A DNA stretch of 64,000 nucleotides. Origin: the human T2T-CHM13v2.0 reference genome, Homo sapiens. Shown here piece by piece: positions 731 to 52,260 of this stretch. The stretch's first letter is position 1, and the number at the start of each line of letters is the position of its first letter. A model generated the notes under the pieces. It saw only the letters and a program-made list of their open reading frames with translations, was not told the DNA's origin and did not search any database. The position numbers and the translations under genes were made by a program. The stretch lies in the NCBI RefSeq assembly GCF_009914755.1, contig NC_060942.1; one strand, 5' to 3'.

Positions 731-1099
731 ACTGCATTTTAAAAAAGAGAAGAGAAAAATTTTTAATTATAGATTGTTGAGCTTCATCTCAACCTTCAGT
801 AAAATACAAGAGTGTATTGTTAAACAGATGACTGTAAGCATATAGAAGCGGAAGATCATATCCCTGGAAGGCATTATGGATTCTCTAATTCATGTCAAAC
901 TAAATTAATTTATTTTTGATAGGATTATTAGACTTATACATCAGGAAGATGCATATGTTAGAGCTAAATTTCAGCCAGTCATTTGATATAAGTCTGTTTA
1001 TTGTAAAACTCATTCATAAGTGATGGACACTTATAAACTGGGTGGTAGTATAATTAAATGAATTTGTAGTGGATTGAACATGTATAGATAAAGTATATA

Positions 1100-9290: not shown

Positions 9291-9413
<123 letters not shown>

Positions 9414-10190: not shown

Positions 10191-12254
10191 TGATTCTTTA
10201 TTCTTGGGTATTAATTTTATGGTTTTGGCTTTAGATAGCAGGTTAGGGCCATATAGATGATACTACTCAAGGAGAAAAAGGTTTACTATAGGATAAAACA
10301 ACTATGATGTTGTCATATGTGTATGTAATCAGCCATGTTACATAGAATAGATTTGTGTACATGAATTGTCCATCTGTAAGCCATTGAGCATACAGTAGTT
10401 GCAACTTGATGAAATTAAACCTACTGAACTGCCTTTTGAATGTTTTCATTGATGTGGATATAGAAACTGCTAAGATAAATAAATATCCTTCTGAGGCTGA
10501 CTTTTTGTGAAAAATAGGTTTCACCTATAACTCCTGTAACTTTAATGTGTGGGTAACATCAGCCTCTAGCTGTTTAAAATGTATTATTTAGCAAGGTAGG
10601 TCCATGGACATCACAATTTACTGGCGTACAGGACACCTATGCTCAAATTTTCATTTTTTATTTTGGAGACTTTTTTTTTTTGCCTACGCTGGAGAAATAG
10701 CCTAAGATAATATAACCACGCTGTGTTTGTGCTAGTTGTTCCCCCAGAAAGTGGAGGCAGCAGTGGATAGATTAGTTGCTAACAGTACCTAACAATTCTG
10801 TTAAAGGAGATCCTATTTTAACCCGGATGTCAGTTTAAGGAGTTAGGGAACAAAATCAGGAAAACAGGAGATTAATTTTCTTCTTGCCACCTGTCAGTAA
10901 CCCTGGAAATATTTATGACATTTAGAAAGCACTGAAAATATTTGTGCCACAGTCAAAAGAAAAGAGGGGCTAAAAATCTAAGGATGTCTACTGTCTTATG
11001 TGGGCTTTGTTGCCAGAGGAATCTGCCAACTTGGACATAAAAAGCACCTCCTAAAAGCAGACGTTTGAAATTCGTTCATTAAGATATTCTTCTCCACAGG
11101 AATGACTCTGCTGTTATCAGTTGTTATGAAGCTAGAGATATAAAAATCCCTGTACCGTGGCTCACAACATTTTAATTACACTTGTTATCATTATATCATT
11201 ATTTCAATTTTTTCAAAATGCTGGTCCTCCCAGAATGGTATATAAGAGGGCTTTCAGCATGCATAGTTAACAAATACAAACAAATTTTAAAAACCAACTT
11301 CTTCAAAGAGTAATTAAAGAACACTGAAATGGGAAACATAACTCCCTAGTCCTCTAAATTGAATCCCTCTCCCCACTTCACCCACTACATCACTATTTGT
11401 CCTTCTGTAAGGAAAAAGAGTCCTTTGTTACAAACACTCATGAACCAGTATAGTATTAGTGAAAGTACCTGCACACAATTACCAGTTTGAATAGGGAAGG
11501 GAAAGGCAAAGAAAGAGAACACAGTTGAAGTTTTCTTCTGTAAAATCTGCTCTGCATCAAGTGGCCTCAGACTATGCATTTTGTGCTCCCATTTGTTTTT
11601 TCATTCTATTCCTTTAAATTTCCCCCTTCTTGTCAATGGTAATCCATTACTTATGGCTCATGCATCTCTGCTCACTGTTCCCTTGCTTTCTAGTTCTAAT
11701 TTGCTTATTTGAGTCACCTCTAAAATATACATACCTAGCTTTTGAGTAAGTTTAGGACTGTCCTGTATGTATGTATGTTGTTTCAAGGAGCAGATACTGA
11801 CATTTATTTTGCCTACTTAATGTACTGTTTTGTTACTTTCCAAGTTTTTAAATGTTTTCCAAATATTTAAGGCAGTTGAGTAAATGAAGTGTAACTGTAT
11901 GTATTTTTCTTAAGTAAAGTTTAGAAATTCCACCTTCATGAAGTCAAACATAAGCTGATTGATTTCTAGGTATTTACTAATGATGTGTTTTAAGAAATGC
12001 ACATTGGTAATATGCCTGATTAAATACAGGGAAGTGCTTGTGAAGTTACTAATATGGCCATAACCCTCTGGTGGTCTCTTCTATGGATGAAAGGTAATGT
12101 TTTAATGGTCCTCCCCCAAACAGTCCTCCACTGTACCTAGCAGTTCTAGACAGTAGAAGATAAGGTCTTCAGCCATCATCATTCCAATCTGTACTCAAAG
12201 CAAGGCCATTTGTTTCAAGTGCTATCGGGGTCCTTCATTCTATGTGTGCCAGGC

Positions 12255-18295: not shown

Positions 18296-18691
18296 TGTCT
18301 TAGTCAGCTTAAGCTGCTGTAAGAAAATACCATAGAGTGGGTGGCTTAAATAACAGAAATTTTTTTCTCACAGTTCTGGAAGACAGAAAGCCCAGATTAA
18401 GGTTGGCAGTGTCCGTTTCTGGTAAGGGCTTTCTTCCTGGCTTGTAGCTGGCTGCCTTCTTGCTGTGTCATCACATTGGCCTTTCTTCCATATGTCTGCG
18501 CAGAGACACAGCAAGCTGTCTACTGTCTCTTCTTATAAGGACACCAATCCTATTGGATCAGGGCCCCATCCTTAGGACCTCATTTATCCTTAATCACTTC
18601 GCTAGAGGGCCCATCTTCAAATGCAGATACACTGAGGGTTAAGGTTTCAATGTATGAATTTTGAAAGTACAAAGACATTCAGTCCATAACC
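18296..18691 (-). mobile_element. MaLR solo LTR (MLT1A-like)
   Basis: tgtcttagtcagctt...ctcacagttctgga...cattcagtccataacc, flanked by a perfect 5-bp TSD GTGAT (18291-18295 and 18692-18696). Confidence 0.9.
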
Positions 18692-25874: not shown

Positions 25875-28550
25875 ACTAATTTTGGGACTCCAATATCAGG
25901 GATTGGGATTTTCCTGATGTACACTCTACCTATAAGTAAATTATCCTTTATTAACTGAGATGCTTTATTTGGATCTTATTTGTAACTCAGCATTTTTTTT
26001 TTTTACTGTGAAGTTAAAACTTTATGTAGCAAATTATACCTATTGATATTTCCTAATTTGCCATGTTTGGTATAATGACAGTTCATTTACAATAAATCCC
26101 AATTCACTTAACATATTAGTGCTCAGGTTTTTTTGTTGTTGTTGTATTTTGGTGGAGGCAGTGGTGATATTTCTTTAGCTATTTTCATACTTAGGTCACT
26201 TCAACCTTCTGAATGTATGATATTGATGTAGAATTTCCCTTGCTTTCCCACCGTCCATACTCATAAGTGTTAACAGTAGTATCCCGACAGTATTTCTGCC
26301 CATTATCTGATGGGTATGTTTTTGGGGAAAAGGGATGTGTCTTAAAGTCCTGTGTCTGCACCGTCATCCAAATTTTGTTTGAAATGTGATTATGAAGCTT
26401 CATATACACAAAATGGAAATTTGGAGAAGAGACTTTAGGGAGCAAAACCAATTTGCTGTCTCTTAGGAGGTGCATATGTATGTAGGAAATAATTCTTTGG
26501 AAAATCTGTGTCATTATTTGTGCGCTTCTGTCTTTGAGATCCTCAGTTTAATATTTATTGAACATTCATTATATGCTAGGATTTTTCCATTATACTGAAA
26601 TAGTTTGCTGCCTGTTAAACTAAATACAGCATAGAATATATTTTAATTATGAACAGTAATCTGGTTTCCGAGATTCTTGTAAATTGCACATACATACACT
26701 AATGCTTTAGCCTCTGTTGGTTATTAGGATCACTGCCACGTTAATACTCCTTTATCATTTAAGATACAGATGGTTAGTGCTCCTGGGAAACTTCCCCCAA
26801 GAAATATGGTTTCTTCTTTTGTATTCCTTGGGGGAATTTCTAGTGTATCATTATCGTTGTTTTTTTAATAACTCTTTCTCTGAACTAAACTATGAATTCC
26901 AAGAAAGCTGGTAGCATATCTCACTCGTTTGCACGTCCTGTATGATTCCTAGATCATAGTGGCCATCACAGCAAATGTTTATTTGACTGAACATATATTA
27001 CTTAGACATCTTTAGCCAATATTTGTATAAGGAATGGTTTGAGAAGATTCTTGTACTTGACTGTGATTGGAACCTCAGGTTATGCAACAGGAAGTCAGTA
27101 TGTCAAACATGAGAATTTAAAATTTTAGGAAGAAAACTACTTCATATTACTAAGCAACCAAGTGAACTCTCTCTTTCAAAATAATGTTTTCTGAGTTTTA
27201 TGCCTAGGTGAGTCAATTCTTTGCATTATCCTTAGTGAGAGACATGTTATTCTTTATGAGATATAGTGAAGTTAGTGAAGATGTCCAGAAAAACATAATG
27301 AATGTTATGTTTGCTATCTCAGGTCCAAATCTATCTAAAAGGTTTCTAGGTATCTGACATCAGCAGAATAATTGACATAGGAACCAAAATATATACCAAG
27401 TAGGTAGGGGAGGCAGTACACCAAGTGGATATTTCCAAGTTTTCTTTGTTTTAATATAGATAGAAAATAACTGACAAGGATGGAATGGGGTCAAGTAGAG
27501 CAAGTTAAGTGGAGATAAGAAGACAGAATTCTGTTAACCTTAAATGCAATTATATATGATGAGCATTTTTATAGATAGCAGCTTGACTCAAAAATAATTT
27601 AGGGTAAGTACATAGAAAATAATGCTGCAGTGATTTAACCCACTTAATTTTGTTTTAGATGTATTCTGGAACTAGAGGAAGTTGGTAAAATTTGGCAGTA
27701 GGACTAAAAGTTCCAGTTGTCACTATTATGGTAGTTTAGGTGAAAGGGGCAAGCGGAAAGGAAATAGTCCTCAGTCTTTTTATAATAAAGGACTCAATGA
27801 AAAAAAAACAGTGAATTCTCTGGTTCAACTTTAAATACTCTATGTAATGTCTATTACTTTGTTTCTAAAAAGCCTATTCATTAAGGAGAAGGAAAATGGA
27901 AATTCTTTTACTTGGTTTGAATTCTTTTTTGATTTTTATGTATGATAGCTATTGTAGCTCCATTGATCATTTAAAAAAAAATCTTACCATTTCAAGTTGT
28001 TGTTCCTTCTAAGGTTCCTGGCCCTGCTCCATCATAAGCAAGTGCAATCAGTCTAGAGCTCTTTGATCAGGAGGGAGTCAGATAATGCTGTCAAGGTGAT
28101 GGTAGTTAGACTTATGAAAGTGGTGGGATTCAGGAGGAGTCAAGGCACATTTTATAATATCAAATAGACCTTCAGGGGTTAATCTGGCATTGCTATTCTA
28201 TCTGCTGGGTCAAGGCTTTTTTTTTTTTCCTCATGCTCTTTTAAATACTGGATTCTGTCCACCCTGTTTAGAAGATTAGCCTTGGAAACCAATATTGTGT
28301 TTTCTTTCTTCCCTTCAGGACAAACTATTTTCCATTTGGGATCACCTCAACAACCTTAACAGGCAGCACCAGGTCTTCATATGCTTTTAAGTTTACCTTC
28401 TGCTATGGAAAGGATCTTTCCTTGAATGTTCATATTTTCATCTTGAGAAGGCAATATATATATAGGATTGGTTAAGCAGCTGTAAATAAATATGACAAAA
28501 TAGAAGAGTGGTTTGTGGGAGTTTTACTATATATACACATATATAATATT

Positions 28551-28946
28551 TTCCAGTCTGGTTTCAGACCCCGGCATGGCTTGGAGACAGCGTTGGTGTG
28601 TATGAAGGATCTTCCTCCAATGAAGGATTTGGGACAACTTTCCATGATGATTATATTAGAGCCTCAGCTGCTTTCGTGTTGGTCATGAGGTGATGCTGAA
28701 CCGAATGCTTGAACTAGCAGGAGTGGCTGGGATTGCATTGGAGTGGTTCCGTTCATTCCTTCCGGGTAGGTACCAGCTAGTGACGTTGGGTGAAAATGGA
28801 CATTGAGGGTCTTCCCGTAAGGAACCCCATAAGAGTCACTCATTCCCCTGTCATTTAGTGGGCATGAGAGGACAAATGGACAACTGAAGGCCAGGCAGTG
28901 CGATTTGAATGACTGGGTAGAAGGTTATGAGAGTGATTCCCAGATT
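28551..28946 (+). mobile_element. Fossil reverse-transcriptase segment of an ancient L2/CR1-clade LINE
   Basis: Manual translation across frameshifts gives FQSGFRPRHGLETALV..MMIIL(E)/SAAF/HEVMLNRMLELAGVAGIALEWFRSFLPGRYQLVTLG/GTP*ESLIPLSF..GYESDSQI. This is colinear with the LINE RT motifs QSGFR..HxTETAL, LDLSAAFD, WFxSFLxGRxQxV, GVPQGS and YADDTQL. Confidence 0.85.
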
Positions 28947-29744
28947 GGTGTCGCTCACATATGTTATTTCTGTTTTGTCAGTGTGACAGTGCAGTCTAGA
29001 ATGGAAAGTGAGAAAGTGTGAATTGTTGGAAAGTGAAAATTTGAGAGGCTCTGGTGTGCTTTCTAATTTCTCTGTCTGAATTAACAGTTTGTGTAAACTG
29101 TGGCCATATTTTAACCACAAATTTATCTAAACATGAAAATCCTATGTAATATTAGATAGAAATGTTTTATTTTCCTTTCTTGTATATATCCAGAGCCTTT
29201 TTCCCTGTGAACATTGACTGCATCTCCATGATCTTTCTTGCTGAAGTTGTAGTCTCCTTGTTCACTCTTTTCCTTGGGACCCTTTTAAGCAAAGTAGCAT
29301 GATGACATTAATAAATATTCTTGAGGCTGATTTTTCCCGGTGACTGTTTTATCTTCACTGAAAGCACTTCATTATTCTGATTCTGCTTTCCTAAGAATCA
29401 AATTGGGTTGTAGTTTTAAGGAATTTGCAGCATAAATACTGCCTCTACTTTGCCTTAAACTGCTCATGCATTTTAAATTTTTACAAGGAATATACTAGAG
29501 TTTCTCCAATTTTGAACATGTTGCTTAGAAATGTGGTGCTTGTTCTTGGTTATTTATTTATATAATATGATTTCAGTATTTTCCTTTAGACTAATGAAAA
29601 GCTTGCTGAGTGTTGAACATGAAAGAAGTTTATTAGGTCTAAGAGTAGAATACAGGTAAAGAACTGAAAAGAAAACACAGATGTATGTGTCTGTAAATAT
29701 CATTAGAACTGTCTGTTCAATGTCATTTTGGCAAAAAGGCAGGA

Positions 29745-29990
29745 AACTAACATTTATGTAGTAACTGATCAGTGTCAGGCACTGAGCCAAGCAGTTTCTA
29801 TTTTTTTTAGCTGATTTATTCCTGATGGTAACATTGAGAAGTGGGTGCTGTTTCTTCATTTTACAGATGAGGAAATTGGTGCTGAGAGAAGCTAGGTATC
29901 TTGCCTAACTTCACACAATGATAAGTGGAAAGATCTATTATTTGGCCTCGGTCTCGCCCATTCCAAAGCTCAGTATTTCCGTCACTGTGG
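29745..29990 (-). mobile_element. MIR SINE
   Basis: cattttacagatgaggaaattggtgctgagagaagctaggtatcttgcctaacttcacaca is the MIR core. Confidence 0.85.
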
Positions 29991-32619
29991 GCCACAGGCA
30001 AGCGTTAGACTTGAAGTGGGGTCCCTAGAGAAAAGATTTTGAAAAGAAGAAGAAAATGATGGTTAGGAGACATGAACAAACCAAGGAGGAAATGAGAGAC
30101 ATAGGAATGTATTAGGATAATGTTGATTTTGAAAATTTCCAGAGTTTTCCTCACACTTAGTTTGAAAAGCCAAGTGATAAAAGGAACAATTTTAAGATTA
30201 TCAAATGAACAGGTTTAGAATTTTGGATTTTCTATCTTTGTTCTGACATTTCTTCACACTCTATGCTGAAAATGAAGTAAAGATACCCCACACTGGATCC
30301 TAGAAACTTACTCTAAGGATCTGTGCATGGAAGGCAATCAGGTGGTTAGTAATTAATTATCTGAGGAAAGACAGCATTTGAAGACAAATATCAGGTGTTT
30401 ACTGTTTATAAAAGCTTTTTTTGTTTTTAATGTGTCTGCAAAAATTTTTCTATGTGGAACGTTGGCTTACCACTGCTTTTAAGTATAACATGGTACATAT
30501 GACAGAGATGTGGTGAATTCTTGTGTTCTACTTAAAGAGTAACTTGTCTGGATTTCAGTAAATGGTTGTTTTCATCTTTGGATGGAGTTTGAATTCATAC
30601 TAGCAGTTTTCATTTTTATGTTGATGATCGCTGTCTCTCATCATTACAATAGATTTATTTCAGGTGTAGTCAGAGAGGATGTTGTTTCTGTGCTTATAAA
30701 TGGACGTTGACACTAGAAAGGTTAAAGCTGTTACTGTTATCCTAACGTCATGTTGTCATTACTGATTGTTACTAGTACCTTAGAAAACAATCCCCCCACA
30801 CGCCAAAAGAAGTAAAGCCCTTTAACTGTAATGATTTTCAATGTCAATGCTATATTTTATCTACTATCAACTCCTGAAGTAACATTTGTAATTGAATTCA
30901 GCACCTTAAGATTTCCTGACTTAGCTTTAGTGAGATATTGATTTCATGAAATTAGGTGGCAGGTGTATCCAGAAACTATTTCCTGAAAGCTTTAAGTGGC
31001 AATATAAAAGACCAAGAACATTAATTCAAGTTAAATGAGTTGGTTGGAGTTGTGCTTACTTAAATAAGATGCTTGCCAAATGGCCAGAAACTGTGATATC
31101 CCAAGTTGTGTTTTTAGGAAGATTGAAAAATGAAGGGAAACAGAAGAATATTTATCCTTTTGTTACGTAAACCTAGGTAGTTCTCTATAATTTTAGCCAT
31201 GGTTTAATCAGTTGCCATTTAGTTAGTTGATTAAATAGGGGCCCAGGTTTAAGATAATTTTTTTCTTGAACTACTACCTTGGCTCTCCAATTCTCTTTTC
31301 TACCCCGATTACATTTACATATTCTCCTTTTTCGTTATTGGAATTGCTCTCTGGAGAGTCTCTGTGTGTCTGGTTGGAACATTGATATTGCTGTCAAATA
31401 ATGCACAGGAAATCTTATTTTGTTTATAGATACATTTCTCCTCATGGGTAATCAAAACGCACGTTTTTTCCTAAGGAAGATATTTCTGTAAAACAAAAGT
31501 AATACTTACATAACTGATTAGTAGCATTGCTTGTGGAATTTATTAATATGTATGTATAATTTTATAAATTTTAAAAACTATTAGCTTGCAACATTGTTAT
31601 TTATTCTCTTTAAACATTTACATTGATCCTAGTCATCTTGACCTTTATTTTACTGGTTTTAATGTACGGAAGAAGAGTATTAATATTGGCTTGTAGCAAG
31701 CATAGGCATTTCTGCGACCCCCTGCTCTGAACTTAGGTTTCTCATGAATCATATTTCCCTGAGGGTGAAATTAAAACAAGAACTAGGTGTATTGAATTTC
31801 TTTTAGGCCTACTACTGGATTCTTAAGATGTATTTTTAAGTGTCACATACTAAGTCTGGGGAGGGGAAGGGTGCTTAAATTCACTGCTCTTTCTAGTTAT
31901 ACTTCCTTTCTAAAGCCTCTTGTTTCCATAAGAGGACTTACTTTGAAATTCGTCCTTTTGTAAAGTTTGTTTTTACTTCATAATTCTATCTGCATTTTAC
32001 ATATATATATTTCACACCATCCTAAATAACTATGATGTTTGAATTTCACAAAACTTTCAGTTTACTACAGAAACCTATGGCTTTTTTTTTTCTAGAAAGC
32101 TTATGTTTTAAAAAGTATGTTTATATGGTAGCACTTCTAATCAAAATGGAAACCACCAGTGGACAAAGTACCTTGAGAATATAGGTGGATAAAGAAGGAG
32201 GAGGAGAGAGGAGAAAGAAGCTAAATTAAATTGGCACTCGTCTTGTGTTATGAATGCCAGTCTTAACACTAGTGGTTAAGTTAGTTATTTTTAGACATTT
32301 CCTTTATCAAACATTTAAAGGTAAAATTTTTCCCATAGCCAGCAAAATGCTGAGCTGAATTCTTTTGACATTCTGCTGATCAAGGAATTTCAGATGAGTA
32401 GTATCAGAATTTTCTGGAGAGAAAGGGGTAGGAGGATGAATCAAAAATTAGATAATGAACAAGGAAACTCTGCTGTTTTTCTTTCTGAACCATAGAAAAC
32501 AATTACAAATGATAATTTTTTCTTCAACATGTAATATGCTTTTCTTCAACATGTAATTTTTTTACATTTTGAAAATAATTTTTTCTTCAACATGTAATAT
32601 GTGTTTTATGTTGAGAAAG

Positions 32620-35256: not shown

Positions 35257-35558
<302 letters not shown>

Positions 35559-37998
35559 TTCAAGTAACAATTAATAAAGTAAAATGTTAAGGCATTGAAA
35601 GAATTCTATAGAATATTAAGAGCAAAAAATGTTTTCATTTGTATTGAAAATAAATGTAAAAATCTAAACCATAAAGTTGAATATATGCATATATATGAAT
35701 GTAAATACAAAAAGATCGGGAAGAAATCATGGTTGACATTTAATAGTTATTCATTCTGAGGCAGTGGATGGGATTGAGGGGAGTTGAGGAGGACTTTTAA
35801 CTGGGTATAATGATGTACTTTTGCACTTTCCATGTAATTACATTTGCTTGCATGAAAACATTAATTGAATCAAGGCAAGAATCTGACAAAATTAGAGAAG
35901 AGTCACATTGTGAGGAAGAAAATAATAAACAATTTTTTTCTGCTTTGAAAATACAGCAGAGTACCCACGTTCCAACAAACAGTAGCTGGAATTAACAGTT
36001 GTGGATGTGGCATAGTTGCTTCTTTTTTTTTTTTTTAATAAAGTCTAACAAAAAGCTGAAGTTGCTTTGATTTCCTCTTCTTTCTCCTCAGAAGCAGTGT
36101 CATAGATTTGCTGGGTATTGTCATAGTTCAGAATTTATACTTTTATTATGAATCTATAGGGGAAATATATCTAAATCTATAGCTATAACCTATTGAACAT
36201 TTAAGTTATTTACAATTTATTTTTCCTATAACTAATAATGTCTTTTTGTGAAAGTATGTGTTTTTCTATGGTCTGTACCAAAAAGTGGATTGCTGATCTG
36301 TAGAGCATGCACAGTTTTTTTAAAAACTGGATCTTGCCAAATGCCTTTCCAAATTGGTTATATCAGTTTATGCTCTCACTGGAGTATTTAATATTTCCCA
36401 TTTCTGGATGTCCTCAGCCAACACATGGAATTGTCAGGCTTGAAATTTTGTTTTCTGTAAATGGTAAAATGTTAGCTTATCAACAAGCCCCTGAATGTGT
36501 TCCGAGCACTCAAACCTGGCAAGGCGCTATGAGGTGAACACCTAGAATCTTTATTAAAGTCAGGGTCCTCAAGGAGCTAGTTGCCATCAAGCAGTGTGGT
36601 GGTAGACTGCACAGAACTAAATGCTACAATAGTAGCATAGGCTGTAATGCCTTTGGAAGTGCAGAGAACATCATTGTGCACTGCAGAGGTGATTAGTAGC
36701 TTTTAGGAGATGAAGATGAGGGGATCTTGACAAATGAGTAGGAAGAGAGGAGAGCAGTGGGCATTGAGGAAGAGAGAAACATGCTGAGAGGCAGCCTGAT
36801 TGGAATGGGCTTTAGAAAGCTAATAGTCAAACTATTACTAATTGCCCTTAAAACCTTAACCAGAAATGGATTAATAGAGCCTCAAAACACGTGTATTTTA
36901 AACTCACTATCGCTATGTAAATGAGGCCTAGAAAAATAGTCAGCTTGTACAAGTCATATAAGCTCTCTCTTTGGCATCCAAAATAAAACTAGGTAGAGAC
37001 TTATTGGCTTATTTAACTTGGGCATCCATCAGGTTGATCTTCAACATGACCAGGCAATACGGGAGTTCCCATGATCTTTTCTCCCCTTTTCTTTCCATGC
37101 TTTACTCTGCTTTCCTCTGGTTAGCTTTATCCCCTGCAGGCCCTGGCCTTGTGGAGGCAGAGATAGGCACCAGCTATTCTCTTTTGTGTCTTTATAGCTA
37201 ATGTTATTACTGGAAGATAATTTATACTCTTTCCTTTTATTTCTGTATCTGTTTTTGAAAAGACACTCAAAATTCCACCAGCTTACCAATTTCTATGACC
37301 AAGTAGATAGTTTAATCTGGCCAGCCTTACTGGTGATGAAATCAATCCTATTTTATCGATGCATACACTGGAATCACATTGTTATGAAAGGGAGAGTCCC
37401 TAAAAGAAAAGAATGCAGGGTATGCAAATATAAGATGGCCACTGCAGCCTTTTGGTATATAGAGTCCTTCACAGACATGATTGCAGCCATGAATTTAAAA
37501 AGAATTTTGGTGATGTTCATTGCATGTATTTTATGTCTACACATCCATGATCGTAACAGCTTTTATTTTAGTGATTAAATGTATTTCAACAAACAACTTT
37601 TGAGTACATTGGTGTTGCTTGTCAGGCAATATAAAAATAAATATGTCTATCTCCTGTGGAATTTCCAAACTTGTTGGAAGTAGTAAGGGCAGGAAAGTTA
37701 AAGGTGTAAACAATTTTCAAAGAAAATAAACCATGAGAGATATGCAAAGTATCGTGATTGTTCTAAAGGAATGGGGCTATCTTAGGTCGTAAAAGGCTTC
37801 CCCATACAGATGGTAGCCAGAGCAGACATGGGAAACCATAGAAGCTTGGTGATTTACTGAGTTGGATTGGATTATAGGAGAGTGGTCTGAGAGTTGGAGA
37901 AGATGAAGATGAGGTAGATGCCAACTGTGTTGTAGATGACCCTAATGCTGGCCTGAGGACTTTGTGCCTCCTTCGGTGGGCAGTGAAAACCACTGATT

Positions 37999-46526: not shown

Positions 46527-46769
<243 letters not shown>

Positions 46770-49324: not shown

Positions 49325-52260
49325 CCTGGGTGAGCGCTCATGTGCTCTCTCAACATATATACTGAGCTTCTTTCATGTGCCAAGTACTATTCTTGACATT
49401 GCAGTTACAGCAGTGAAAAACAAAAGCAAATCTCTCATGAAGCTTATTTTCTTTGAGAGACAGAAAATAAGCAAAATAAATACCTAAAATGTATAGGTTA
49501 TTCAGTGGTGACAAGTGATATGGGGCAAAATACATAAGGGAGTGGGGGAGTAGGGGAGAGGGTTACATTTAGAAAAGACCTGAGGAGCATGAGAGAACAG
49601 GCATTCAGGGGAGAGAACTCCAGGTAGAGGGAACAGCAGTTACAAAGGCATTGAGGCAGGAGAGTGCCTGGAATATTCCAGAGATAGCAAGAGGCTGGTG
49701 TGGCTGTGAGGCCAAAGTGAACAAGGGAGAGTATGTTAAGAAACAAAGCCAGGGAAGTTATGGGGGCCAGGTTATATGGTGCCTTGATGCTGGCTTCTGT
49801 TTTGAGTGAGATATTAAGCCATTGTAGAGTTTTGAGCTAGAAAGGCAATGGCCACATGTAGGTTTTAGCAGGATCACTAACTACGAAAAAGATACGAGAA
49901 CAAGGAAAAAAGCAGGGAGACCCATTAGACAGCTATTGTCGTAATCTAGAGGAGAGGTGTTGTTGATTTGAAGGAAAGTACTAGCAGTGGATGGGATGAA
50001 AAGTGATTGGATTCTGGTAGATCCAGCAGAAGCTGCTGGCAGATAAATGTGAGTGTAAGATAGAGAAAGGAGTTGGGGATAACTCCAGAGTTTGAGTATG
50101 TGAGCAAGTTGAACAATAGCATTGTCCTTAGTTTAGATGGAAGAATCTTCAAGGGAACCAGTTAAGGGGAGGGGCGTTGTTGATCAGGAGCTCAGTTCTG
50201 GACATGAAATTCTTTTTCAATATCTAGGTGGACATGTTAAATAACTGATTTTATCTGTCTGAAAATTATGGGAAAGATCCTTCTTGGAGATACTGATTTG
50301 GAAGTGGCCAGTTTATAGATGGTAGTTAAAGACAGGAAACTGGATGACATTACCAAGGAACTGAAGGTAAATAGAAAAGAAAAAAGACCCAAAGACTGAG
50401 CTCAGGGGCACTTGAATTTTAAGAGCTTGGAGAGAGTATAGAAAACAGTGAGACTGAAAGTAAATGGACACGGTAAGATTTTCTGTCCTGGAAACCATAT
50501 GAAGAAAGTATTTTGGAGGGTGAAGTGACTCAAATGTGTCAATGCTTTTGAAATGTGAATTCATGATGAAGATTAGGAAATTACCACTGGATTTACCTTT
50601 ATGAGTGTATTGATGAATTTGGCAGTGGTAATTTTTGTGGAATGGTAAGACCATAGCTTGAATAAGGTGGGTTCAAGATAATGAGAGGAGAGGAATTAGA
50701 GACCACAAGTGTAGACAATTCTTTCAAGGAATTTTGAGGTCAGGGGAAGGAGTGGAATGGGAAAATGGCTGGAAAGGAAAGAATCAAGAGACAGTTTAAA
50801 AAAATGGGAAACAATTGTTAGCAAATTATTCACTAATGGGAACATTTCAGTTAAGGAAAATTGATAATGTGGCAGAGGTGTTCTGTTATGGTTTGGTTAG
50901 ATGAGGGAGAATGGGACTATTCAGCAAATGGAGAGATTGGTCTTAGCAAGAGATGTAGACAGGTGCTCTAAAGGAGGCAGTAGGAAAAGCGAGGGTGTTT
51001 CAGTAGAAGTGAAGGTAGGCCAGTACTTGTGGAAGGGGCTCGTAGAAGTTTGCTTCTGTGTGTGTTATTTTTCTCAGCAAAATAGAAAAGTAGTCCATCA
51101 GTTAAGGGTGAGAATAGGGGAGGTAGTTTTGTAGACTTAAGGAGAAGATAGAAAATATTTGTCTGAGAGAGTCTGACAGCATTAAGGACATTCTTAAGGT
51201 TAGTCATCCTGAATTTACTAGGAGACCAACCTACATGGTTGTCCATTTTTCTCCAGTCATGTTCGGGACCACTCTACAAGTACAGAAGATGTGTATAGTG
51301 ACTGAAGCTGGGGTTTTGCCAAATGTAAATGATGAAGCAAGAGAGGAAGAAAGGAGTTAAGGATATATGAAGTGGAGTAATGAAGGCAAATGTCCATAGA
51401 ATTTAAGCTGATGTGGAGGTGAGTAAAGGATAGTGTGAAGAAGGAAGTCTCATTGGTGTGAAAAGGTTATTTGATCTGGTGTTCTGAAGGAAATGAGTTG
51501 GAAGTGTAAGTGATATGAGAGTGGAATGCATGGATTGAATTTAGGATACTATTATGGGATGTATTTTCAGAGCTGATAAGAAAGAAGGGGGCTAGGTTTC
51601 AGGCTATCAAGAGTGCTTAGGCCATGTGTGCACTCAAGAGTTGCCTGGATGAGGTGGCATCAGCGGCTGAAATTCAGCACCCCTCCATTTGCCCAACCTA
51701 GTGCTGTGGGATGGGACTGGGTCCACCTGGAAAAAAGATTGCCTTTTCTTTTTTGCACAAAGATGTTTTAAAGGCTGGTGGTGGCCCTTGCATAAGATAT
51801 TAGAGAATCATCAGCATGGATATTGAAACAGACAATTATAGTAGAACTAACATTGACAAGATGTCATATTAGCAGCTAACATATTCAAAAAATCAAGGAG
51901 AGTAACCAAGAGTTGGCAGATAAGTACAGTAGGTTGAATAGTTAGTAATATAGTCTGATGGCATGAGATACAATGCTGGAGGCATCATAGGAACCAGGGA
52001 GGGAGAATGGTTTGGAGGGAACAGTGAGGGGAATATAGGTCACTTATTCCATTTCCAGGCCCAGTGGTACAAGAGGTGTAGAAAAGAAAAAGGCTACCAC
52101 CTGAGAGCATTCCAGAGGAACCAGTGTCCTAGCTGGGAAGACAGCCAGATTTTGTATATTAAGAAGTAAAGGGAGTTTTCAGAGAAAATATGGAGGCTGC
52201 AGGAGATTTTGATAATGACATCCTAAATTCCAGAGGAAACCTTGGGAGTTTAGTAGCTGA
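49325..52260 (-). mobile_element. Long (~3 kb) L2 element, antisense, running from the 3' tail into ORF2
   Basis: Reverse-complement tail tcaacatatatactgagc...atgtgccaagtact. Minus ORF 50313..50654 ends in SVFGSFFFSIYLQFLGNVIQFPVFNYHL, an L2 RT motif remnant. The 5' boundary is approximate. Confidence 0.8.
51620..51790 (-). mobile_element. MER91-like hAT-Tip100 MITE nested in the L2
   Basis: ggctgaaattcagcaccc...gccttttcttttttgcacaaag...ggctggtggtggccct. Confidence 0.6.

What the first reader, a model, noticed from the sequence alone, without database searches (positions are those of the whole stretch)
28551..28946. Unusually well-preserved, CpG-retaining ancient LINE reverse-transcriptase fossil: candidate exapted element
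Seen: about 400 bp, missed by the ORF track, translate across three frameshifts into colinear RT motifs: FQSGFRPRHGLETALV, SMMIIL/SAAF, LAGVAGIALEWFRSFLPGRYQLVTLG, GTP*ES (GVPQGS) and YESDSQI (YADDTQL). I count 10 CpGs here, in flanks that are strongly CpG-depleted. It reads more clearly than the ordinary L2 RT at 50313-50654. From recall it resembles reptile/amniote-type L2 RTs more than mammalian L2a-c. Established: very old TE fragments that remain legible are often conserved enhancers or exons. Inference: purifying selection on a cis-regulatory element in a neurodevelopmental gene. The catalytic motif is dead, so it is not an active RT.
Basis: partly seen in the sequence, partly recalled or inferred. 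Interest (0 to 1): 0.7.

Follow-up and report, generated by a model that had tools for sequence, protein, structure and literature searches.

The report
Ancient LINE-derived poison exon in ASXL3
A decayed piece of an ancient jumping gene inside the brain-development gene ASXL3 forms an optional exon with an early stop, kept nearly unchanged across placental mammals, which likely sends the message to decay and so lowers ASXL3 output; the exon was already catalogued, but we found no paper noting its jumping-gene origin.

Summary
The fossil is real. Two stretches (28551-28661, 28678-28794) match LINE reverse transcriptases at 53-54% identity (E 1e-14). The GVPQGS/YADD-like tail is weak but colinear (2 of 1500 controls). 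There are 9 CpGs, not 10. A profile of ordinary human L2 copies finds 50296-50779 but not this element.

Its best-kept part is a 198-nt cassette exon (28568-28765) in ASXL3 intron 2. Both acceptors lie in the RT motif FQSGFR. Inclusion reads 31 RT-frame codons, then runs past an old frameshift to TGA 28686, predicted to trigger NMD. Beaver, rat and bat gene models carry the same exon and stop (38, 34, 37 of 39 residues); pangolin has other indels and still stops. Lim et al. 2020 list this exon as an NMD event in human RNA-seq.

So the element is exapted and constrained, most likely as a poison exon, not an enhancer. NMD sensitivity and regulation of this exon were not shown. A 2026 brain AS-NMD supplement has no ASXL3 row. 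It is a new member of a known kind (TE-derived conserved poison exons, as with LF-SINE).

The parts
28551..28946 (+). Decayed LINE (L2-like) ORF2 reverse-transcriptase fragment, sense to ASXL3, three frameshifts, catalytic motif lost
28568..28765 (+). 198-nt stop-containing cassette exon of ASXL3 intron 2 (main form)
   Evidence: RefSeq table given with the finding; Lim 2020 Suppl. Data 2 row chr18:33626873-33627070 EI_NMD; proteins P0003-P0006, P0009
28557..28765 (+). 209-nt form from the upstream acceptor; stop after 16 added codons, 160 nt before the donor
   Evidence: RefSeq table
28555..28567 (+). Two acceptor AGs (28555-56 and 28566-67), both inside the codons of the RT motif FQSGFR
28686..28688 (+). 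TGA premature stop of the 198-nt form, 77 nt before the exon end and 258 nt from the AUG; a second in-frame stop follows at 28710
   Evidence: same end (...LLSCWS/LLSWWS) in human, beaver, bat, rat models and P0013
28766..28771 (+). 5' splice site GTAGGT
28479..28567 (+). Conserved intronic flank before the acceptors; no RT homology detected before 28551; likely splicing-control sequence
   Evidence: 28 of 30 conceptual residues identical, no indel, against rodent-like P0013
28319..28372 (+). Candidate 54-nt frame-keeping exon just upstream, used together with the poison exon in the beaver model
9291..9373 (+). ASXL3 exon 2 (upstream constitutive exon; ends in phase 2)
   Evidence: gene table
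46574..46682 (+). ASXL3 exon 3 (downstream constitutive exon)
   Evidence: gene table

Best explanation
A fragment of an ancient L2-like LINE reverse-transcriptase gene in ASXL3 intron 2 forms an optional 198-nt exon with an early stop codon, conserved across placental mammals, that likely acts as a poison exon, sending included transcripts to nonsense-mediated decay and so lowering ASXL3 output. Shown: RT origin; splice sites inside the RT sequence; the stop; human inclusion in published RNA-seq; sequence constraint over the exon and its flanks. Inferred: decay of this particular transcript; regulated inclusion; an effect on ASXL3 dosage; that constraint acts on RNA splicing signals and on keeping a stop, not on a peptide; insertion before the boreoeutherian split.
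For: In-silico splice of exon 2 + exon + exon 3 gives a stop 77 nt before the exon end, with further junctions downstream in a 12-exon gene; the 209-nt form also stops. Lim et al. 2020 Suppl. Data 2 lists the 198-nt exon as EI_NMD; their filter was at least 3 junction read pairs and 3% PSI. Coordinates map with offsets 191695 and 191697.

Gene models of human, beaver, bat and rat read the same added peptide and end at the same place: 38, 38, 37 and 34 of 39 identical. Two pangolin models have other indels and a different end, yet still stop within the exon.

Untranslated parts are equally conserved: after the stop 24/24, 23/24, 22/24, 20/20 and 20/20 conceptual residues in 5 of 5 peptides; before the acceptor 28/30. 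62 of 69 codons match P0013; 0 of 20000 simulations reach this at per-base identity 0.80 or less. Beyond about 28786-28905, all 5 peptides show indels or frame changes against human.
Against: No NMD-inhibition or protein data for this exon were seen. Lim's events are in-silico predictions, 70% validated among those assayed. [quoted passage not shown]

Non-human evidence is gene models and ORF calls, some possibly projected from human, and they were found by similarity, which inflates identity. P0013 is unnamed (rodent-like by residues shared with rat). The neutral human-rodent identity of about 0.67-0.70 is recalled. The acceptors are modest (11 and 13 pyrimidines of 18), and no YTRAY branch motif was found in 28400-28900. 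No marsupial or sauropsid ortholog was recognised.
Confidence: 0.78

Rival explanations
1. The constraint is on a DNA-level element (enhancer or silencer of ASXL3), and the exon is a low-level by-product of cryptic splice sites in it.
For: CpG retention (o/e 0.40-0.52 against 0.16). Conservation extends about 90 nt upstream of the exon. No ASXL3 row in a brain AS-NMD catalogue.
Against: The conserved block is centred on the exon and falls off about 20-30 nt after the donor although the fossil continues. Splice junction and stop are shared by gene models of four mammalian orders. The RefSeq table lists no functional element here.
Confidence: 0.13
2. The included transcript escapes decay and makes a product: either the 85-aa protein (first half of HARE-HTH plus 39 exon-derived residues) or, by re-initiation downstream, an ASXL3 lacking most of HARE-HTH.
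For: The added peptide is 87-97% identical among mammals. The stop is early, 258 nt (or 186 nt) from the AUG, where start-proximal escape from NMD can occur (recalled). P0003-P0006 match PF05066.
Against: Untranslated parts are as conserved as the translated part, pointing to nucleotide-level constraint. Pangolin changes the C-terminus. The domain match covers only positions 1-40 of 71.
Confidence: 0.06
3. Neutral old repeat, legible by chance.
For: The 3' tail is decayed and variable among mammals.
Against: 62 of 69 codons are identical to a rodent-like sequence without indels, against about 29-32 expected at neutral identity. The rat model shows 34 of 39. The branch is 1.23 long against 3.1-3.2 for two ordinary L2 copies.
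Confidence: 0.03

Closest known systems
ASXL3 EI_NMD event chr18:33626873-33627070 (hg38), Lim et al. 2020, PMC7347940 Suppl. Data 2
   Same: The same 198-nt exon, listed as NMD-inducing inclusion in a disease gene.
   Different: The table gives gene, coordinates, type and disease only; no origin, conservation or test for this exon was seen.
LF-SINE-derived exons (PCBP2 and others; Bejerano et al. as reviewed in PMC9148063)
   Same: An ancient retroposon exonized and conserved; 16 of 19 such exons are alternative and 11 bring an early stop.
   Different: Here the source is the RT-coding part of an autonomous LINE, in sense, with acceptors inside an RT motif. It is a single recognisable copy in the DNA search, and only placental depth is shown.
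Conserved poison exons such as SCN1A exon 20x/20N
   Same: Stop-containing cassette with conserved flanks in a dosage-sensitive neurodevelopmental gene (ASXL3 haploinsufficiency discussed in PMC13393785).
   Different: SCN1A's exon is validated by cycloheximide and ASO skipping; this one is not, as far as seen.
L2-clade LINE ORF2 proteins (nearest: P0017 and its group)
   Same: 41 of 76 residues identical over the RT stretch; PF00078.
   Different: The hits are unnamed (lizard/snake-type L2 by recall). The human copy is a frameshifted 400-bp fragment with the catalytic motif lost.

Membership tests
Non-LTR retrotransposon RT (PF00078) fossil | Significant, colinear homology to LINE RT proteins | tested here: met
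   the window fragments alone do not reach Pfam (0 of 3)
Active or domesticated RT gene | Open frame with intact YxDD motif | tested here: not met
   three frameshifts, stops, YESD in human and YEGG in P0002
L2 clade (against CR1, Crack and others) | Groups with named L2 references in an RT tree or Dfam/Repbase match | tested here: inconclusive
   sits beside the P0017 group at 96/63 support on 87 columns; references unnamed; L2 label is recalled. An L1 ORF2 does not hit the locus.
Ordinary mammalian L2 (L2a-c type) | DNA match to a profile of common human L2 ORF2 copies | tested here: not met
   profile of 9 human copies hits 50779-50296 at 117 bits and nothing in 28551-28946; the copies' subfamily label is recalled
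Named ancient L2 families (L2-3_AMi, X15_LINE, X24_LINE, UCON49/86) | Match to the family consensus | not testable with these tools
   families listed in PMC5753468; no Dfam or Repbase here
Poison exon | Alternative inclusion in normal human tissue | tested here: met
   listed in Lim 2020 at 3 or more read pairs and 3% or more PSI; RefSeq alternative transcripts
Poison exon | Premature stop more than 50-55 nt before a downstream junction | tested here: met
   77 nt (198-nt form) and 160 nt (209-nt form) before the exon end; exon lies between exons 2 and 3 of 12
Poison exon | Conserved sequence and conserved stop | tested here: met
   by protein models, not DNA alignments
Poison exon | Transcript rises on NMD inhibition and skipping raises protein | not testable with these tools
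   no data seen for this exon
Poison exon | Regulated inclusion by tissue or stage | tested here: inconclusive
   no ASXL3 row in supplements of PMC13078869
TE-derived enhancer | Open chromatin, H3K27ac, reporter activity | not testable with these tools
   no chromatin data; RefSeq lists no functional element in the window

The most novel reading that the evidence does not exclude
An L2 lineage otherwise known from reptile-type genomes left a single RT fragment in the ASXL3 intron of an amniote ancestor. Its own RT motif supplied the splice acceptors, and it became a regulated switch that sets ASXL3 dosage in developing brain. Skipping it would raise ASXL3 in Bainbridge-Ropers syndrome, and variants that strengthen it would be a hidden cause of the disease.
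Probability: 0.25. Interest if true: 0.7.

Novelty: new member of a known kind. Interest (0 to 1): 0.45.

Why it matters
ASXL3 loss of function causes a neurodevelopmental disorder thought to act through haploinsufficiency (PMC13393785). A conserved poison exon is both a place for missed deep-intronic variants and a handle for raising expression. The origin adds a clear case of the coding part of an ancient LINE turned into a conserved gene-dosage exon; this is known mainly for SINEs. The exon itself is already in a published target list, which limits surprise.

Tried and rejected
Family and structure libraries:
- Pfam on three window fragments: 0 of 3.
- PDB sequence searches: only chance hits or none.
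- Rfam over 27500-30000: one sub-threshold match outside the element.
- ESM Atlas: weak RVT_1 leads only (0.89 and 0.92).
- Viral contigs: 0 of 35 pattern matches confirmed.

Human genome searches:
- No second DNA copy.
- Protein queries returned only self, weak L2-like loci, or lists that look dominated by L1. Whether other copies of this L2 lineage exist in human therefore stays open.

Alignments and scripts:
- The first multi-row alignment A1 was misaligned and not used.
- RT homology upstream of 28551 and 3' of the YADD-like site was not found.
- In one search the 54-nt exon was mis-set by one base; corrected.
- In one search the pangolin upstream comparison (1/19) is an off-by-one error; alignment A3 shows one change in that stretch.
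- An active or domesticated RT was rejected.

Literature:
- Searches joining ASXL3 with exonization, exaptation or cassette-exon terms gave 0 papers.
- Searches gave listings. In those read (and 52, where the one 'intron 2' passage was not displayed) this exon was not discussed.
- Yan 2015, Felker 2023 and Thomas 2020 were not held and may list it.

Full report
Observation. The + strand reads FQSGFRPRHGLETALV...SMMIIL from 28551, shifts to ASAAF, shifts to GHEVMLNRMLELAGVAGIALEWFRSFLPGRYQLVTLG, and returns to the first frame for GTP*ES...YESDSQI. There are 9 CpGs in 28551-28946, not 10. O/e is 0.40 against 0.16 for the window, and 6 of the 9 lie in 28568-28765. Only 2 of 161 non-overlapping windows of the same size hold 9 or more; the other CpG-rich stretch of the window is an Alu by its sequence. 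The excess is modest (Poisson P about 0.012, chosen after the fact).

RT origin. Single fragments do not reach Pfam (0 of 3). A two-row profile bridging the first frameshift through a pangolin protein (A2) found 320 proteins at E<=1e-3 among 1.84 billion. I scanned 17 of the 150 listed, plus none of the rest: 13 carry RVT_1, 3 are ortholog peptides and 1 is an unrelated repetitive protein. After dropping 8 of the 150 (7 ortholog peptides and P0069), 142 of 142 remaining proteins have their best window hit at this locus. That is partly circular, since they were selected on it. P0017 aligns at 53% and 54% in two colinear pieces, E 1.4e-14. The 3' tail was not part of the selection: it is missed by local search but reached by only 2 of 1500 random peptides in a position-fixed test. 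No RT homology was found upstream of 28551.

Family. An L1 ORF2 does not hit it. Over the RT stretch the element is 41/76 identical to P0017, against 23/68 and 17/62 to two human L2 copies. Its branch is 1.23 long against 3.1-3.2 for those copies (tree of 57 rows, from 55 of 140 RT segments, 87 columns, weak support). The nearest proteins are unnamed; that they are lizard/snake-type L2 is my recall. Repbase lists ancient L2 traces in human (PMC5753468, passages), but no consensus could be compared.

It is an exon. The gene table lists alternative exons 28557-28765 and 28568-28765. Both acceptors fall in the codons of FQSGFR, and the donor is GG/GTAGGT. Exon 2 ends in phase 2, so the 198-nt form enters in the RT frame. 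It reads about 31 RT-frame codons, passes the old frameshift and ends at TGA 28686-28688, 77 nt before the exon end and 258 nt from the AUG. The 209-nt form stops sooner. Lim et al. 2020 (PMC7347940; passages and four rows of Suppl. Data 2) list chr18:33626873-33627070 as EI_NMD, 198 nt. It maps here with a constant offset at both ends and a 2-nt difference from the exon 2 anchor. So the exon was already known as a predicted NMD event with human read support.

Constraint. Database proteins named human, beaver, Rhinolophus and rat carry the added peptide with 38, 38, 37 and 34 of 39 residues identical and the same end; in human, beaver and rat it follows exon 1-2 sequence. Two pangolin models have different indels and still stop inside the exon. 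Untranslated sequence is as conserved as the translated part: after the stop 24/24, 23/24, 22/24, 20/20 and 20/20 conceptual residues in five unnamed peptides; before the acceptor 28/30 in rodent-like P0013. Over 69 codons P0013 matches 62. None of 20000 simulations reach that at per-base identity 0.67, 0.70 or 0.80; 1 in 10000 do at 0.85; about half do at 0.95. The neutral human-rodent level near 0.67-0.70 is recalled. From about 28786-28905 on, all five peptides show indels or frame changes, and the YADD-like site differs. Caveats: these are gene models and ORF calls found by similarity, some may be projected from human, and no marsupial or sauropsid ortholog was recognised.

Mechanism. Shown: RT-derived splice sites, inclusion in human RNA, a premature stop, and constraint on exon and flanks. 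Inferred from the established junction rule: inclusion triggers NMD and lowers ASXL3. Inferred from the pattern of conservation and the pangolin variant: selection keeps splicing signals and a stop, not a peptide. ASXL3 disease is thought to be haploinsufficiency (PMC13393785, passages), which fits a dosage role. Against: the supplements of PMC13078869 (abstract start and supplement searches) have no ASXL3 row in 8 files, one cut, though ASXL1 and ASXL2 appear. The acceptors are modest, and no decay or skipping experiment on this exon was seen. Rivals are an enhancer with incidental splicing (0.13), a short or re-initiated protein (0.06) and a neutral fossil (0.03).

Novelty. Retroposon-derived conserved exons with early stops are known: 11 of 19 LF-SINE exons (PMC9148063, passages). 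Poison exons are defined in PMC8819188 (passages). Searches for ASXL3 with exonization, exaptation or cassette-exon terms returned 0 papers. Searches returned listings; passages of PMC13542418, PMC13769315 and bioRxiv 10.1101/2025.06.26.661736 did not discuss this exon. The library lacks most subscription papers, three relevant papers were not held, and repeat tracks may already label the stretch. Verdict: real, exapted, a new member of a known kind; interest 0.45.

Noticed in passing
window 28319-28372: A 54-nt frame-keeping candidate exon with a strong pyrimidine tract and weak donor, 195 nt upstream of the poison exon; the beaver model P0004 includes its ortholog. Not in the human gene table.
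   Followed up: partly
window 18374-18421: A 48-nt AG/GT-flanked exon matching the length and place of Lim 2020's ASXL3 row chr18:33616679-33616726 (labelled ES_NMD); it keeps the frame between exons 2 and 3 in silico and is not in the gene table.
   Followed up: partly
window 10748-10750 and 29013-29015: Both 3-nt annotated exons read AG/AAA/GT; ASXL1 has a 3-nt microexon at the equivalent junction. One of the two may be a real microexon and the other an aligner's placement.
   Followed up: partly
   Followed up: yes
window 35259-35591: Alu element; the only other CpG-rich stretch of comparable size in the window.
   Followed up: yes
P0003 against window 28569-28685: The 85-aa human database protein differs from this assembly at one residue of the exon-derived peptide, suggesting a polymorphism inside the exon.
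   Followed up: no
window 747-836: Weak match to the N-terminal part of the RT profile (13 bits), possibly another very old LINE scrap.
   Followed up: no
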